The notes beneath the pieces are model-generated. The model ran no database searches. It was not told the origin of the DNA and saw only the letters and a program-made list of their open reading frames with translations. A DNA stretch of 64,000 nucleotides from the NCBI GenBank assembly GCA_037444305.1, contig JBBIMP010000023.1:2798-66797 (forward strand), given 5' to 3'. Position 1 is the first letter of the stretch. Each line of letters starts with the position of its first letter. Both the position numbers and the translations under genes were made by a program. This document shows positions 3,989-53,820 of this stretch, piece after piece. Origin of the DNA: Acidobacteriota bacterium (GTDB lineage Bacteria; Acidobacteriota; UBA6911).

Positions 3989-4291
3989 ATGGCAGAGGGA
4001 GCTGGAACTGGTGAGAAAGCGTTGTACTTCGTTCTTGGTGCATTTGTCGGTGCCGCCACCGCGCTCCTCCTGGCGCCCCGAAGCGGCGAGGAGACCCGGC
4101 AGTTGATCGTCTCCAAGGCCCGGGAGGGTGCCGACTACGTCTCGAACCGAAGCCGTGAGTTCACGGAGCGAACCTCCGGGATCATCGACCGGGGCAAAGA
4201 GCTGATACAGAGTCAGAGAGATCAGCTGACCGCTGCCCTGGAGGCCGGCAAGCAGGCGTACAAAGAAGAGAAGGACAAAGCAAAGGCATAG
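3989..4291 (+). CDS. YtxH-like protein (DUF948-associated)
   Basis: GAFVGAATALLLAPRSGEETRQ matches the YtxH signature. A strong RBS (AAAGGAGACAATATG) precedes the start. Confidence 0.55.
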   Translation: MAEGAGTGEKALYFVLGAFVGAATALLLAPRSGEETRQLIVSKAREGADYVSNRSREFTERTSGIIDRGKELIQSQRDQLTAALEAGKQAYKEEKDKAKA

Positions 4292-16575: not shown

Positions 16576-17334
16576 ATGGATCCCATATCAGCCACGCTCA
16601 TCACGCTCGACGAGGAAGACAACATCGAAGAGGCGCTGAAATCGGTCTCCTGGGCCGACGAAATCGTCGTCGTCGACGGCGGGAGCCGCGATGCCACCCT
16701 GGATATCTGCCGCCGGTATACGGACAGGATCTATCGCCGCGACTGGACGGGTTTCGTGGATCAGAAAAACCACGCTGTCGAGCGGGCCCGGCACGACTGG
16801 ATCTTCTCGCTGGATGCCGATGAACGCGTTGGTCCGGAGCTCAAGGCTGAGATCGAAGCCCTGCGGGGCCCGGGTCCCAGGTTTGCCGGATACCGCATCC
16901 CCAGGGTGGCGCACTTCATGGGGCGCTGGATCCGCCACGGCGACTGGCACCCGGATCGCCAGCTCCGCCTGTTCGACCGCAGGCGCGGGCGGTGGTGCGG
17001 CGGCCGGGTGCACGAATCCGTGCAGGTCGACGGGGAATGCGGCATCCTGCGCGGCGAAATACTGCACTACACTTATCGCAGCCTCTCGGATTACCTGGAC
17101 AGGCTCGAAACTTACTCCACGCTGGCGGCGCGGGATTACCAGGAAAGAGGAAAGGTGGCGACAGCCTGGAAGGTGGCGGCGAATCCTCCGGTTACCTTCC
17201 TCAAAGCCTACGTCCTCAAGCGCGGCTTCCTGGACGGGCTGCCGGGATTCATGGTGGCGTTCATGGGCTCCGTCTCGGTTTTCTTCAAGTATGCCAAGCT
17301 GCTCGAGTTGCAGCGGTCGCGCCGGGAGCGGTGA
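16576..17334 (+). CDS. Family 2 glycosyltransferase (WaaE/KdtX-like)
   Basis: ISATLITLDEEDNIEEAL ... EIVVVDGGSRDAT ... FSLDADER. It starts 2 nt after the preceding stop (an internal ATG of ORF 16018..17334). Confidence 0.8.
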   Translation: MDPISATLITLDEEDNIEEALKSVSWADEIVVVDGGSRDATLDICRRYTDRIYRRDWTGFVDQKNHAVERARHDWIFSLDADERVGPELKAEIEALRGPGPRFAGYRIPRVAHFMGRWIRHGDWHPDRQLRLFDRRRGRWCGGRVHESVQVDGECGILRGEILHYTYRSLSDYLDRLETYSTLAARDYQERGKVATAWKVAANPPVTFLKAYVLKRGFLDGLPGFMVAFMGSVSVFFKYAKLLELQRSRRER

Positions 17335-17349
17335 GGGCAGGAAAAAGCA

Positions 17350-17461
17350 TTACACGGAGTTCACGGAGAAGCACGGAGGTCCACGGAGAAAACCGCCGAA
17401 TGCGGGGCAGCAAAAGCCCGCTCTCTGTGGTTCTCAGTGCTTCTCCGTGAACTCCGTGTAA
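17350..17461. repeat. Composite repeat element: four phased 10-bp CACGGAG direct repeats flanked by a 25-bp perfect inverted repeat
   Basis: The decamers tACACGGAGt, tCACGGAGaa, gCACGGAGgt and cCACGGAGaa sit at 17351, 17361, 17371 and 17381. The left arm at 17350-17374 is the exact reverse complement of the right arm at 17437-17461. Confidence 0.6.
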
Positions 17462-17554
17462 CCGCCTTTCGTTCCATTACCGCAAGCCTCCTGCCCCGGC
17501 TGTGCTATATTATCCGCTTTAATCCGGACCCCCATTGAACGAAAGGCCGTAATC

Positions 17555-18307
17555 ATGAAAGGAATCGTACTCGCGGGCGGGCTCGGCTCGCGGCTCAACC
17601 CGCTGACCAGGGTCACCAACAAGCACCTTCTCCCCATCTACCACAAGCCCATGATCTACTACCCGATCGAGACGCTGGTGGCGGCGGGGATCCGCGACAT
17701 CCTGATCGTCACCGGGGGCAAGAACGCCGGGCACTTCCTGGAGCTGCTGGGCAACGGCAAGCACTTCGGCCTGCACCACCTTAACTACACCTACCAGGAG
17801 GGGGAAGGCGGCATCGCCGCCGCGCTGTCGCTGGCCGAGTTCTTCGCCGACGAGGAACCGGTCTGCGTGATCCTCGGGGACAACATCATCGAGGGGTCCA
17901 TCGCGAAGTTCGTCCGGAACTTCGAACAGCAGGAAGGCGGCGCCCGCGTGCTGCTGAAGGAAGTCGAGGACCCGCAGCGCTTCGGCGTACCCGAGCTGCG
18001 GGGCGACGAAATCGTCCGCATCGAGGAGAAACCGGCGATCCCGGCATCGAATTACGCCATCACGGGGATCTACCTGTATGATCCCGAAGTGTTCCAGATC
18101 ATTAAGACGCTGAAGCCGTCCGGGCGCGGGGAGCTGGAAATCACGGACGTGAACAACGCCTACATCCGGAAGGGCCGGCTCCGGTACGACATCCTCGAGG
18201 GCTGGTGGACCGATGCCGGAACCTTTGAGTCCCTGCTGCGCGCCTCCACTCTCGTGTCCGATTTGATGCGCAGCCGCGGGGAGCAGGGCGAGTCCGGGAG
18301 CGATTAA
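17555..18307 (+). CDS. rmlA: Sugar-phosphate nucleotidyltransferase, probably glucose-1-phosphate thymidylyltransferase (short form)
   Basis: GGLGSRLNPLT ... HLLPIY ... ILGDNI ... EEKP. Its position immediately 5' of rmlB and rmlD supports the call. Confidence 0.65.
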   Translation: MKGIVLAGGLGSRLNPLTRVTNKHLLPIYHKPMIYYPIETLVAAGIRDILIVTGGKNAGHFLELLGNGKHFGLHHLNYTYQEGEGGIAAALSLAEFFADEEPVCVILGDNIIEGSIAKFVRNFEQQEGGARVLLKEVEDPQRFGVPELRGDEIVRIEEKPAIPASNYAITGIYLYDPEVFQIIKTLKPSGRGELEITDVNNAYIRKGRLRYDILEGWWTDAGTFESLLRASTLVSDLMRSRGEQGESGSD

Positions 18308-43671: not shown

Positions 43672-43895
43672 CCGGGCAAGGCCGTATTGAAGGGACGCGG
43701 CAAGCGGAGCCGCGAACGCCAGTGAGCGGTTTGGCAACCAAACCCGTCGCTATTGCTCCGGGCTCCGTTGAATCCCGGCCGGCAATCAGAAACGGCGGAA
43801 GGAGCAACCCTCAACCGTTCCCGCGAAATTTCTCCGCGTACAAAAAAGATGCCTCTGACTGGCAGTTCAGATTAACACGGAGATTCACGGAGAGC
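43672..43895 (+). repeat. Intergenic repeat, copy B (composite): the ccgtattgaaggga module, a caaaaagat...ggcag module, and two CACGGAG decamers
   Basis: It aligns block-wise to 22338-22491, and its 3' end aligns to the 17340-17371 element. Confidence 0.5.
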
Positions 43896-43896
43896 T

Positions 43897-44673
43897 TCAT
43901 TTGTTTCCAGTGCGGCCCGCCGTATCGTTGTCCGCTCTCTTGTCTAGCGCTGCCAATTCGTGTTGCACAATCGCCACCGCCGCCAGCGATGCGGTCTCTG
44001 CGCGGAGAGTGTGCCTGCCCAGGCTGAAGCTCTCAAATCCGGCGTCTGTCGCCGCGTCCTCCTCCGCCGGATCCCAGCCCCCTTCCGGGCCCACGCACAG
44101 GACGACTCTATCCGGCGCACACGGTCCCAGCGACAAGCGCTTCACGGCTTTGGGCGAAAGTAGAAGGCGAATGCCGGCTTTCCTTCCCTCCCCGTCGACG
44201 AAGTCCACGAAGGTGTGCGGCGCGGTCACGGCGGGCGCCTCGTTGCGTCCGCACTGCTTGCAGGCCTCCTGGACGATGCGCCGCCACCTCTGCATCCGGG
44301 ATTCGAGCCGCTTGCCCGGGATGCGGGCGCTTCCGCGCCGGGTAATGAGCGGCACGAACTCATTTATGCCGAGTTCCGTCCCCTTCTGCAGAATCCACTC
44401 GAAGCGGTCCGGCTTTATCAGCGCAGCAGCCAGCACCACGGCAGCCGGCGTGGCATCACCCGACGATACCCGTTGCAGATTTGTCAGGCGCACCGTCTCT
44501 CCCTGTATCTCCACCGTGCCGGCATGGCTTTCGCCGGTTCCGTCGAATATCTCCACCTCCTCACCGGCTCGGATCCGCAAAACGTGGCGCAGGTGGTGGG
44601 ATTGATCCGCGGGCAGTACGGCGTGGTCGCCCCGGAAGAGAACGGCGGGTACAAAAAATCGTCTGCGCGCCAT
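43897..44673 (-). CDS. rsmE: 16S rRNA (uracil1498-N3)-methyltransferase
   Basis: RRFFV ... a PUA-like N-terminus, and SPOUT motifs (LCVGPEGGW, LGRHTLRAETA). Confidence 0.85.
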   Translation of the reverse strand: MARRRFFVPAVLFRGDHAVLPADQSHHLRHVLRIRAGEEVEIFDGTGESHAGTVEIQGETVRLTNLQRVSSGDATPAAVVLAAALIKPDRFEWILQKGTELGINEFVPLITRRGSARIPGKRLESRMQRWRRIVQEACKQCGRNEAPAVTAPHTFVDFVDGEGRKAGIRLLLSPKAVKRLSLGPCAPDRVVLCVGPEGGWDPAEEDAATDAGFESFSLGRHTLRAETASLAAVAIVQHELAALDKRADNDTAGRTGNK

Positions 44674-51807: not shown

Positions 51808-52014
51808 ATGAATCCCCTTTCGCTCGACGGCTTCATTCGCGGCTACGCCGCGGCCTTTGATTACAGGCCTAGAATGTAAGCTTTTACGGCGCCGAATTCA
51901 AACAGGGAAGCAAGGGAAGCGGAGGGAGGGTCGCGGGGAAAAAGGCCGGTCCCCAAGGTCTTCCGTGCGGCAGTTGCTGCCGCACGGAAGACCCTGAGGC
52001 GGACTGGCTACGCG

Positions 52015-53764: not shown

Positions 53765-53820
53765 AAAGGGGGACAGGCTACCGTGTCCCTCTGGAGGGAC
53801 ACGGTAGCCTGTCCCCCTTT
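53765..53820. terminator. Perfect 26-bp-stem hairpin with a 4-nt loop, flanked by A-rich 5' and T-rich 3' sequence (a bidirectional intrinsic-terminator-like structure)
   Basis: AAAGGGGGACAGGCTACCGTGTCCCT-ctgg-AGGGACACGGTAGCCTGTCCCCCTTT, then TTTGATT. Confidence 0.6.

What the first reader, a model, noticed from the sequence alone, without database searches (positions are those of the whole stretch)
17350..17461. Four phased CACGGAG decamers inside a 25-bp perfect inverted repeat, between the glycosyltransferase genes and the rml operon
The decamers tACACGGAGt, tCACGGAGaa, gCACGGAGgt and cCACGGAGaa repeat at exact 10-bp periodicity. The first two and a half repeats are mirrored perfectly 62 nt downstream (GTGCTTCTCCGTGAACTCCGTGTAA), giving a 112-nt hairpin or MITE-like structure.

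The candidates are an iteron or winged-helix-regulator binding array upstream of rmlA, a long-stem terminator or attenuator for the glycosyltransferase genes, or a MITE. A downstream TGcTATATT extended -10 (about 17495) suggests the rml promoter lies beyond it.
Basis: seen in the sequence. Interest (0 to 1): 0.55.

Follow-up and report, generated by a model that had tools for sequence, protein, structure and literature searches.

The report
Gene-less copy of a nuclease-linked hairpin
The hairpin is real, but it is not a switch for the rhamnose genes: it is a gene-less copy of a palindromic insert found across many bacterial phyla, whose full-length versions carry a small uncharacterised nuclease gene (GxxExxY), and I found no paper or RNA family describing it.

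Summary
Four CACGGAG heptamers (spacing 9/10/10 nt, not exactly 10) lie in a 25-bp perfect inverted repeat. With weaker pairing the repeat spans window 17328-17483 and overlaps the stop codon of the upstream GT2 gene. It folds at about -83 kcal/mol (z = -10).

It is not locus-specific. A scan of one genome per species found more than 120 loci in many phyla with the same build: TTnAC, then [CACGGAG nn] x3, a variable loop, [nn CTCCGTG] x3, then GTnAA. Syntenic GT2-rmlA spacers in relatives are only about 80-105 nt, against 220 nt here, and lack the element. They keep a -10-like box upstream of rmlA, so the rmlA promoter lies downstream of the insert.

The variable loop sometimes holds a gene for a GxxExxY protein (TIGR04256/PF13366, PD-(D/E)XK nuclease fold). 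All 14 GxxExxY genes I inspected at DNA level are bracketed by, or directly adjoin, such repeats, and they sit between co-directional host genes.

Between the two arms only the heptamers match; the spacers match no better than chance. That suggests the heptamers are recognition units.

Best reading: an ORF-less miniature of a GxxExxY hairpin cassette. Mobilisation by the nuclease is inferred, not shown. Any local effect is probably a 3'-end RNA stem-loop.

No Rfam family or paper describing it was found.

The parts
17328..17483 (.). Whole element as defined by the extended inverted repeat (156 bp).
   Evidence: Arms 17328-17389 / 17422-17483, 62 nt, 79% complementary. Copies within one other genome likewise share about 25 nt outside the heptamer arrays.
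17350..17389 (+). Left arm: TTA, then four CACGGAG heptamers starting at 17353, 17362, 17372 and 17382 (spacers TT, AAG, GTC).
17390..17421 (.). 32-nt loop with no ORF. In full-length family members this position holds the GxxExxY gene.
   Evidence: There is no GxxExxY similarity anywhere in the window (tblastn).
17422..17461 (-). Right arm: four units read on the minus strand. CACGGAG at 17452-17458 and 17443-17449; degenerate CACTGAG at 17433-17439 and CACAGAG at 17423-17429. The outer 25 bp (17437-17461) complement 17350-17374 perfectly.
17332..17334 (+). Stop codon (TGA) of the 252-aa GT2 gene (16576-17334). It lies inside the left terminal part of the element.
17503..17511 (+). Extended -10-like box TGcTATATT, 20 nt past the element and 43 nt before the rmlA ATG (17555). 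Probable rmlA promoter; it is not part of the element.
   Evidence: Comparable boxes lie upstream of rmlA in all 9 syntenic loci. The sigma-70 two-hexamer scan found nothing here, so there is no -35 match.
43873..43895 (+). Solo arm of the same family, TTAACACGGAGATTCACGGAGAGC. It abuts the stop codon of the minus-strand ORF 43897-44673. No partner arm was found.

Best explanation
The 156-bp element (17328-17483) is an ORF-less, miniature copy of a widely dispersed palindromic cassette.

**Shown: build of the family.**
- Each arm holds 2-4 heptamers, CRCRGAG (here CACGGAG), repeated every 9-10 nt. Outside them is a short TTnAC / GTnAA flank.
- The two arms face each other across a variable loop.
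- In full-length members the loop is a gene of about 125 codons for a GxxExxY protein. This is a minimal PD-(D/E)XK nuclease with its catalytic residues intact.
- Cassettes sit right after stop codons, in spacers between co-directional genes.

**Shown: this copy.**
- It lies at the stop codon of a GT2 glycosyltransferase gene, just upstream of rmlA's own extended -10 box.
- Relatives have no such element at this spot.

**Inferred: how it works.**
- The heptamers are recognition units for a protein. The GxxExxY nuclease is the obvious candidate.
- The nuclease would cut at or near the arrays and so mobilise both full-length and gene-less copies.
- Locally, the element probably does no more than add a very stable stem-loop to the 3' end of the glycosyltransferase transcript. 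That stem-loop could block exonucleases, offer an RNase III site or cause partial termination.
- rmlA keeps its own promoter.
For: **The family exists and is dispersed.**
- The scan of one genome per species for three CACGGAG at 9-10-nt spacing hit its 120-locus limit. Hits came from Acidobacteriota, Verrucomicrobiota, Planctomycetota, Chloroflexota, Bacteroidota, Pseudomonadota, Spirochaetota and Gemmatimonadota.
- 95 of 158 arrays have an inverted partner 11-487 nt away.
- Consensus of the outer flank and arrays: A-rich, TTnAC, then three 9-nt units.
- Copies within one genome share loop and ends.

**It is lineage-specific at this locus.**
- Six syntenic GT2-rmlA loci (GT2 67-73% and RmlA 79-89% amino-acid identity) have spacers of about 80-105 nt with no CACGGAG element; the window's spacer is 220 nt.
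- Without the element, the distance from stop codon to -10 box would be about 15-20 nt, comparable to relatives L126 (14 nt) and L135 (32 nt).

**Link to GxxExxY.**
- Genes lie inside or against CACGGAG arms in L005, L026 and L106. The L106 protein matches TIGR04256 at E = 1e-43 and PF13366 at 2e-41.
- Eleven further GxxExxY genes, including isolates of Bacteroides finegoldii, Bernardetia, Sphingomonas, Treponema and Gemmatirosa, were read at DNA level. Nine are bracketed by heptamer arrays, Treponema by a single-unit inverted repeat, and Gemmatirosa has one upstream heptamer plus an ORF-less hairpin just downstream.
- 31 of the 120 best homologues carry read-through tails with 3-residue periodicity, such as SAxSAxSAV and LRxLRxLR; I read these as translated arrays.

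**The heptamers are the conserved units.** Variable heptamer positions match between arms at 92%. Spacer dinucleotides match at 37.7%, against 37.2 +/- 2.8% for shuffled partners.

**The nuclease looks intact.**
- E27, D67 and E77 are invariant and K79 nearly so.
- AlphaFold2 model pLDDT is 94.6.

**Gene context.**
- In all 10 GxxExxY loci with called or annotated neighbours, the neighbours run the same way as the gene.
- Hairpins lie between co-directional genes 17 times, convergent 5, divergent 1.
Against: - No GxxExxY gene lies in the 64-kb window, and I could not read the rest of this genome.
- The window holds only one full copy and one solo arm.
- I obtained no empty/filled pair of sites at nucleotide resolution. 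The relatives are too diverged to align in the spacer. No target-site duplication was seen. Mobility is therefore inferred from distribution alone.
- 120 viral-contig stretches (1.14 Mb) carry 176 such arrays with no GxxExxY gene nearby. The arrays can therefore persist, or function, without an adjacent nuclease gene.
- GxxExxY could be cargo rather than the mobilising enzyme.
- This copy is atypical. Its spacing is 9/10/10 rather than 9/9, it has four units, and its outer 25 bp are perfectly complementary including the spacers.
- The loci were selected by the exact triple heptamer, and gene calls are crude.
Confidence: 0.68

Rival explanations
1. Operator or iteron array. A regulator (winged-helix, ribbon-helix-helix or similar) binds the phased CACGGAG units cooperatively and controls rmlA or the glycosyltransferase genes.
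For: - Units are spaced at about one helical turn.
- Across the family the heptamers are conserved but the spacers are not, as expected for protein sites.
- The element ends 20 nt from the rmlA -10 box.
Against: - The array is absent from six syntenic spacers that still carry a -10-like box upstream of rmlA.
- The same arrays occur at more than 120 unrelated loci in many phyla and in viral contigs.
- A solo arm sits after an unrelated gene at 43873.
- No regulator gene is adjacent.
Confidence: 0.07
2. Long-stem terminator or attenuator that evolved in place to end glycosyltransferase transcription or tune read-through into rmlA.
For: - It begins at the GT2 stop codon and lies upstream of the rmlA promoter.
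- The stem is very stable, -83 kcal/mol.
- Family members favour spacers between co-directional and convergent genes.
Against: - The scan found no terminator-like site in 16900-17700.
- What follows the stem is CCGCCTTTCGTTCC, not a run of T.
- The stem is about 45 bp with a 32-nt loop, far from terminator dimensions.
- Relatives do without it.
- The dispersed family points to insertion, not local evolution.
- A side effect on 3'-end formation remains likely and is part of the best explanation.
Confidence: 0.1
3. Ordinary MITE or REP/REPIN: a non-autonomous element moved by a DDE transposase or a RAYT (HUH tyrosine) transposase. On this reading GxxExxY is only occasional cargo.
For: - Terminal inverted repeats, small size, many copies and intergenic location.
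- Most copies have no ORF.
Against: - No transposase-like family recurs among 4196 ORFs from the 120 loci.
- No direct repeats flank the window copy or the copies compared.
- There is no GTAG or CGTC tag (definition from PMC3733652).
- Spacers are not complementary between arms, which is unlike copied terminal inverted repeats.
- The one gene repeatedly found inside is GxxExxY.
Confidence: 0.1
4. The element acts at RNA level. Either the repeated GGAG/GGA motifs form a small RNA or protein sponge (CsrA-like), or the Shine-Dalgarno-like GGAGG repeats pair with the CCUCC repeats of the other arm.
For: - The common 9-mer CACGGAGGA contains GGAGG, and the opposite arm contains CCTCC.
- In cassettes the last unit lies 0-19 nt before the GxxExxY ATG.
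- In some viral contigs, solo arrays sit just upstream of ORF starts.
Against: - In the hairpin form the motifs are paired, not exposed.
- Loops are not conserved across genomes.
- No Rfam family matched, either in the window or in 18 cassette loci.
- A crude test showed no enrichment of ORF starts downstream of arrays.
Confidence: 0.05

Closest known systems
REP / BIME / REPIN elements mobilised by RAYT transposases (for example E. coli REP, Pseudomonas REPINs, GTAG/CGTC-tagged repeats; PMC3733652)
   Same: - Short palindromic repeats in many copies, lying outside genes.
- Mostly downstream of genes, between co-directional or convergent genes.
- Linked to one small nuclease-type gene that the repeats flank.
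- Thought to act as RNA stem-loops.
   Different: - REPs are single palindromes of 20-40 nt with a GTAG or CGTC tag, and are species-specific.
- Here each arm is an array of 2-4 heptamers at 9-10-nt spacing.
- The heptamer is shared across phyla.
- The spacers are not complementary between arms.
- The linked gene is a PD-(D/E)XK (GxxExxY) protein, not an HUH tyrosine transposase.
Bacterial MITEs (Correia/NEMIS, ERIC, RUP, Nezha)
   Same: - Non-coding, 100-300 bp, with terminal inverted repeats.
- Fold into strong hairpins when transcribed.
- Related to longer gene-bearing elements.
- Present or absent at the same site in different relatives.
   Different: - MITEs have target-site duplications and a DDE transposase partner. 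Neither was found here.
23S rRNA intervening sequences carrying a small ORF (Leptospira and Coxiella S23p; PMC4990558)
   Same: - A small ORF bracketed by a long inverted repeat.
- Inserted in a transcribed region and described as a selfish element.
- Its stem is cut by RNase III (from my own knowledge, not checked here).
   Different: - Different cargo (a four-helix-bundle protein) and a different target (rRNA helices).
- I did not test whether IVS stems carry heptamer arrays.
Integron gene cassettes with attC sites
   Same: - Promoterless ORFs, co-directional with their neighbours.
- Bounded by imperfect palindromes in which conserved short boxes, not the whole duplex, are recognised.
   Different: - attC follows each ORF as a single site with RYYYAAC / GTTRRRY boxes, is recombined by IntI, and cassettes cluster at attI.
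- Here the arrays flank the ORF on both sides, the elements are scattered in operon spacers, and no integrase was seen.
Foldback transposons of eukaryotes, and transposon ends with several subterminal binding sites (Mu, Tn7, IS21, IS607; from my own knowledge)
   Same: Ends built from tandem short repeats in inverted orientation, which serve as multiple binding sites for the element's enzyme.
   Different: Those elements use other enzyme classes (DDE or serine), different repeat lengths, and show no cross-phylum conservation of the repeat.

Membership tests
GxxExxY-associated heptamer-array hairpins (working family defined in this report) | Each arm holds 2-4 CRCRGAG heptamers at 9-10-nt spacing, with the purine-rich arm 5' on either strand. 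| tested here: met
   Four plus four units, spacing 9/10/10. Family pattern.
GxxExxY-associated heptamer-array hairpins (working family defined in this report) | Short outer flank TTnAC or TTnA before the first heptamer, mirrored as GTnAA or TnAA after the last. | tested here: met
   CATTA|CACGGAG ... CTCCGTG|TAACC. This matches the TTTCA|CACGGAG ... CTCCGTG|TGAA subclass seen in L007, L027, L089 and L118.
GxxExxY-associated heptamer-array hairpins (working family defined in this report) | Sits in a spacer between co-directional genes, at or just after the upstream stop codon. | tested here: met
   GT2 (+) stop at 17332-17334 lies inside the element; rmlA (+) starts at 17555. Family context.
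GxxExxY-associated heptamer-array hairpins (working family defined in this report) | A GxxExxY (TIGR04256/PF13366) gene lies between the arms. | tested here: not met
   The loop is 32 nt, and tblastn finds no GxxExxY similarity in the window. I therefore file it as the ORF-less form. Most copies are of that form, and ORF-less hairpins lie beside ORF-bearing ones in L180 and L302.
MITE | Terminal inverted repeats on a short non-coding element. | tested here: met
MITE | Target-site duplication flanking the inverted repeats. | tested here: inconclusive
   No direct repeat at either candidate boundary: CCGGGA|GCGGTG...ACCGC|AAGCCT, or AAGCA|TTACAC...GTGTAA|CCGCC. None among the UBA2271 copies. The exact ends are uncertain.
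MITE | A parent insertion sequence with a DDE transposase and the same terminal repeats. | tested here: not met
   No recurrent transposase-like family among 4196 ORFs of 120 loci. GxxExxY is the one real gene family found next to the arrays; the other recurring ORFs are translated repeats or neighbouring host genes.
REP / REPIN (RAYT-associated) | GTAG or CGTC tetranucleotide tag at one end of a 20-40-nt palindrome. | tested here: not met
   The ends read TTACACGG / CCGTGTAA. Definition from PMC3733652.
REP / REPIN (RAYT-associated) | A RAYT (IS200/IS605-like Y1) gene flanked by the repeats in the same genome. | not testable with these tools
   Only 64 kb of this genome could be read. No family other than GxxExxY recurs next to arrays in other genomes, but no HMM search for Y1 transposases was run.
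Intrinsic (Rho-independent) terminator | Short G+C-rich stem, small loop, followed directly by a run of T. | tested here: not met
   The scan of 16900-17700 found no site. The tail after the stem is CCGCCTTTCGTTCC.
Operator or iteron array of the rmlA promoter | Conserved together with the promoter in orthologous loci. | tested here: not met
   Absent from L125, L126, L128, L129, L130 and L135, which keep a -10-like box upstream of rmlA.
Any curated RNA family (Rfam 15) | Match at the family's gathering score. | tested here: not met
   No hit in the window or in 18 cassette loci. At permissive E-values only generic microRNA-precursor hairpin models matched.
Integron attC site | RYYYAAC ... GTTRRRY core boxes; the site follows a cassette ORF; an IntI integrase is nearby. 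| tested here: not met
   The window ends do not fit the boxes. No integrase Pfam family appears among the called genes of the 20.7-kb stretch L121 around the element. The elements are scattered, not in cassette arrays.

The most novel reading that the evidence does not exclude
The CRCRGAG heptamer arrays and the GxxExxY PD-(D/E)XK protein together form a class of mobile cassette that has not been described. On this reading:
- it is driven by a minimal nuclease, not by a DDE, HUH, serine or tyrosine recombinase;
- the nuclease recognises the heptamers;
- the cassettes colonise spacers after stop codons inside operons in at least eight bacterial phyla, and arrays also occur in viral contigs;
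- they leave behind many gene-less hairpins such as the one in this window.
Probability: 0.35. Interest if true: 0.8.

Novelty: new variant of a known kind. Interest (0 to 1): 0.6.

Why it matters
**For this locus.** It removes a tempting but unsupported regulatory story. The rml genes keep their own promoter, and the hairpin is an insert.

**More broadly.**
- GxxExxY/PDDEXK_3 is a very large protein family: at least 7985 cluster representatives at E <= 1e-10 in one capped search. The PD-(D/E)XK survey lists its function as unknown (PMC3424549).
- Linking these genes to a defined, conserved DNA motif that brackets them, and to abundant gene-less derivatives, gives a testable function for the family: binding or cutting at the heptamer arrays.
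- It would also explain a common class of intergenic hairpins, and of spurious peptide tails such as SAxSAxSAV and LRxLRxLR on predicted proteins.
- If the nuclease does mobilise the cassette, this would be a new enzymatic route to DNA mobility, and one that tolerates insertion inside operons.

Tried and rejected
- **Rfam.** Gathering thresholds gave nothing on the window or on 18 cassette loci. A permissive search of 17200-17650 hit only generic microRNA-precursor hairpin models.
- **tRNA/tmRNA.** None in the window.
- **Literature.** Searches for CACGGAG, MITE plus phyla, GxxExxY, PDDEXK_3/PF13366/TIGR04256, the 23S IVS and PDDEXK plus inverted repeats found no description of the arrays. The nearest papers were on REPs (PMC3733652) and the PD-(D/E)XK survey (PMC3424549).
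- **Transposase partner.** All-against-all clustering of 4196 ORFs from 120 loci showed none.
- **Cargo other than GxxExxY.** Mostly spurious high-GC ORFs. One inner ORF from a viral contig matched a PHROG of unknown function.
- **GxxExxY genes in 1.14 Mb of viral contigs that carry arrays.** None by tblastn.
- **Arrays as 5' leaders.** The crude test showed no enrichment of sense ORF starts: 0.35 in viral and 0.26 in genome loci, against 0.39-0.42 at random positions.
- **Target-site duplications.** None seen.
- **Empty-site allele.**
  - The window element has no match in PLSDB plasmids.
  - The Sphingomonas fabD-GxxExxY-fabG stretch matched only its own record.
  - Exact look-ups of RmlA and GT2 returned only contigs that carry the element.
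- **Promoter alignment.** MAFFT did not register the -10 boxes because their spacing differs, so I counted distances by eye.
- **Solved structures.** No relative by sequence.
- **Unrelated hits.** The Chthoniobacter, Planotetraspora and Streptosporangium hits, and probably the Streptomyces ones, appear to be coding or tandem repeats and were set aside.

Full report
**1. The observation**

Window 17350-17374 (TTACACGGAGTTCACGGAGAAGCAC) is the exact reverse complement of 17437-17461, with 62 nt between the arms. CACGGAG starts on the + strand at 17353, 17362, 17372 and 17382. The period is therefore 9, 10, 10 nt, not exactly 10.

The right arm also has four units. The outer two are exact. The inner two are degenerate: CACTGAG and CACAGAG on the minus strand. 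Weaker pairing extends the inverted repeat to 17328-17389 / 17422-17483, with 62-nt arms at 79% complementarity.

Either strand folds at about -83 kcal/mol, against -44 +/- 4 for shuffled sequence, z = -10. It is the top-listed inverted repeat in the window. It is also the only place in 64 kb where a 7-mer recurs three times at period 9 or 10. The feature is real and not due to chance.

**2. Local context**

The window matches a metagenome-assembled genome, GCA_964538715.1, contig CAZIEJ010000011.1. The nearest named relatives of its SmpB protein are Acidobacteriota genomes at 78-80% identity.

The gene order is:
- a GWxTD-domain gene;
- a GT2 gene of 328 aa;
- a GT2 gene of 252 aa, 16576-17334;
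- the element;
- rmlA (17555-18307), rmlB and rmlD;
- smpB.

All are on the + strand. The GT2 stop codon (17332-17334) lies inside the left end of the extended repeat. An extended -10-like box, TGcTATATT, lies at 17503-17511. That is 20 nt past the element and 43 nt before the rmlA ATG.

**3. The same spacer in relatives**

A metagenome scan with the 252-aa GT2 protein returned 35 loci. Six are syntenic (GT2 followed by rmlA), with 67-73% GT2 and 79-89% RmlA amino-acid identity. Their spacers are about 80-105 nt with no CACGGAG element, against 220 nt in the window.

All nine syntenic loci, counting the window, have a TAnnnT box 26-62 nt upstream of the rmlA ATG. Six of these have TG one base upstream (read). 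The element itself is not a conserved part of that promoter.

Without the 156-bp element, the stop codon would be about 15-20 nt from the -10 box, comparable to relatives L126 (14 nt) and L135 (32 nt).

Several relatives carry other short tandem repeats at the same spot:
- GTCAATCG x5 in L125;
- a TGAATCA-type palindrome in L129;
- GACGAAT and CACGAAT hairpins in a spacer of about 580 nt in L131-L134 and L148.

This junction has been colonised repeatedly by elements of similar build.

**4. A dispersed family**

I scanned one genome per species for three CACGGAG at 9-10-nt spacing. The scan stopped at its 120-locus limit. Hits came from Acidobacteriota, Verrucomicrobiota, Planctomycetota, Chloroflexota, Bacteroidota, Pseudomonadota, Spirochaetota and Gemmatimonadota.

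Of 158 arrays with at least three exact units, 95 have an inverted partner 11-487 nt away. The common build is: an A-rich stretch, TTnAC, [CACGGAG nn] x3, a variable loop, [nn CTCCGTG] x3, GTnAA, a T-rich stretch.

Loops differ between genomes but are shared within one. Four copies in Rhodocyclaceae UBA2271 share both loop and ends. Loops often hold further nested arrays, such as CACGGGG, CACAGAG and CACGAAT.

The window has one more trace of the family: a solo arm at 43873-43895, abutting the stop codon of a minus-strand ORF.

A few hits appear to be unrelated coding or tandem repeats: Chthoniobacter, Planotetraspora and Streptosporangium, and probably Streptomyces.

**5. What is conserved**

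I compared the two arms in 53 hairpins. The variable positions of the heptamers match at 92%. The dinucleotide spacers match at 37.7%, against 37.2 +/- 2.8% when arms are paired at random. The outer 8-nt flank matches at 62%.

Selection therefore acts on the heptamer units, not on a perfect duplex. This points to sequence-specific recognition, most simply by a protein. The window copy is unusual because its outer 25 bp are perfectly complementary, spacers included.

**6. The linked gene**

I clustered the ORFs near the arrays. One real protein family recurred next to them; the other recurring ORFs were translated repeats or neighbouring host genes. In L005, L026 and L106 that gene lies inside or directly against the CACGGAG arms.

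The gene encodes a GxxExxY protein: TIGR04256 at E = 1e-43, PF13366 PDDEXK_3 at E = 2e-41. The family is very large, with at least 7985 hits at E <= 1e-10 in a capped search.

Of the best 120 homologues, 31 have C-terminal tails with 3-residue periodicity, such as ...DSAxSAxSAV and ...LRxLRxLR. Some have N-terminal TAENAESAEM. I read these as translations of the arrays.

I then read the DNA around eleven more GxxExxY genes:
- **Six from metagenome contigs:** L158, L164, L170, L175, L177 and L180.
- **Five from isolate replicons:**
  - Bacteroides finegoldii;
  - Bernardetia;
  - Sphingomonas parapaucimobilis;
  - Treponema saccharophilum;
  - Gemmatirosa kalamazoonensis.

Nine of the eleven are bracketed by heptamer arrays. 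Treponema has a single-unit inverted repeat. Gemmatirosa has one heptamer upstream and an ORF-less hairpin just downstream. The B. finegoldii cassette reads TTCAC-CACAGAG GA CGCAGAG GA CACGGAG ... ORF ... CTCTGTG AC CTCTGTG TC CTCTGTG-GTGAA. The heptamers vary: CGCGGAG, CGCAGAG, CGCCGAG and CACAGAG; CGCGAAG in Sphingomonas; a single CACGGAT unit in Treponema.

In all 10 loci with called or annotated neighbours, the gene runs the same way as the host genes beside it. Examples are fabD > GxxExxY > fabG and radA > GxxExxY > an FAD-dependent protein gene.

ORF-less hairpins lie next to ORF-bearing ones in L180 and L302. By crude gene calls, CACGGAG hairpins lie between co-directional genes 17 times, convergent 5 times and divergent once.

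**7. The protein**

An alignment of 46 homologues shows E27 (the GxxExxY motif), D67 and E77 invariant, and K79 nearly so. These are the PD-(D/E)xK catalytic residues.

The PD-(D/E)XK survey lists PDDEXK_3 as function unknown, with multiple horizontal transfers (PMC3424549).

**8. Interpretation**

Shown:
- the window element has the architecture of this family;
- it is absent from orthologous spacers;
- family members with an ORF carry a GxxExxY gene precisely between the arrays;
- the heptamers are the conserved units.

Inferred:
- the window copy is a miniature derivative of such a cassette;
- the heptamers are recognition sites for the GxxExxY nuclease, which mobilises both forms;
- cassette genes are expressed by read-through from host operons, with the last GGAG of the 5' array placed to serve as a ribosome-binding site.

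For the host locus, the most likely consequence is passive. The element adds a stable stem-loop at the 3' end of the glycosyltransferase message, while rmlA keeps its own promoter.

**9. Rivals**

- **A dedicated operator array** fails the conservation test.
- **A purpose-built terminator** fails on anatomy.
- **A classical MITE or REPIN** lacks a target duplication, a transposase partner and the tag (PMC3733652).
- **An RNA sponge or Shine-Dalgarno mimic** is not excluded for the solo arrays seen in viral contigs. It has no statistical support, and no Rfam family matches.

**10. Caveats**

- Only 64 kb of this genome could be read, and it holds no GxxExxY gene.
- Mobility rests on distribution, not on an empty/filled pair of sites.
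- 1.14 Mb of array-bearing viral contigs has no GxxExxY gene, so the arrays can exist without an adjacent nuclease gene.
- The loci were chosen by exact motif, and the top GxxExxY hits are all at least 63% identical to the query.
- The literature library is incomplete, so "not described" means not found in six targeted searches.

**11. Verdict**

- The element is an ordinary-looking insert at this locus.
- It belongs to a widespread family for which I found no description, tied to an uncharacterised nuclease family.
- I rate it a new variant of a known kind (palindromic intergenic repeats and mobile cassettes), with interest 0.6.

Noticed in passing
window 53765-53820: Perfect 27-bp palindrome, AAAGGGGGACAGGCTACCGTGTCCCTC / GAGGGACACGGTAGCCTGTCCCCCTTT, with a 2-nt loop. 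It starts with AAA and ends with TTT, so it looks like a two-way terminator.
   Followed up: no
window 51951-51999: 23-nt arms, 91% complementary, 3-nt loop: CCCCAAGGTCTTCCGTGCGGCAG / CTGCCGCACGGAAGACCCTGAGG.
   Followed up: no
window 43873-43895: Solo arm of the same family (TTAACACGGAGATTCACGGAGAGC), directly after the stop codon of the minus-strand ORF 43897-44673. No partner arm was found. It is probably a remnant.
   Followed up: partly
L125:1985-2025; L129:1975-2020; L131:3735-3800 and 4140-4215: Relatives carry different short tandem-repeat arrays at the same GT2-rmlA junction. L125 has GTCAATCG x5 running into the GT2 C-terminus. L129 has a TGAATCA palindrome. L131-L134 and L148 have GACGAAT and CACGAAT hairpins in a spacer of about 580 nt. 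The spot seems to be colonised repeatedly.
   Followed up: partly
L010:6700-7400 (Caldilineaceae chromosome OZ220684.1): A 210-bp tandem satellite. Each unit holds TTGTC-[CACGGAG GGC] x3 and a CCGCGAAGG-type triplet, all on one strand and with no inverted partner.
   Followed up: partly
L190:7589, L191:4706/6474/10558, L249:10076/13210, L256:2170/4630/6854 (IMG/VR contigs): Solo sense-oriented CRCRGAG arrays lie a few to some tens of nt upstream of phage ORF starts. No GxxExxY gene was found in these stretches. A crude enrichment test was negative.
   Followed up: partly
L177:1001-1390 and L180:1001-1408: Two different genomes carry different GxxExxY cassettes (129 and 135 aa) between neighbours with the same Pfam domains: a NuoE/F-like gene upstream and a Fer2_4-domain gene downstream. 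This suggests either an old inherited insertion or a preferred site.
   Followed up: no
P0004-P0117 (GxxExxY homologues): Many predicted GxxExxY proteins carry tails such as SAxSAxSAV or LRxLRxLR, or heads such as TAENAESAEM, that look like translated repeat arrays. These probably come from gene calls that run into the arrays.
   Followed up: yes
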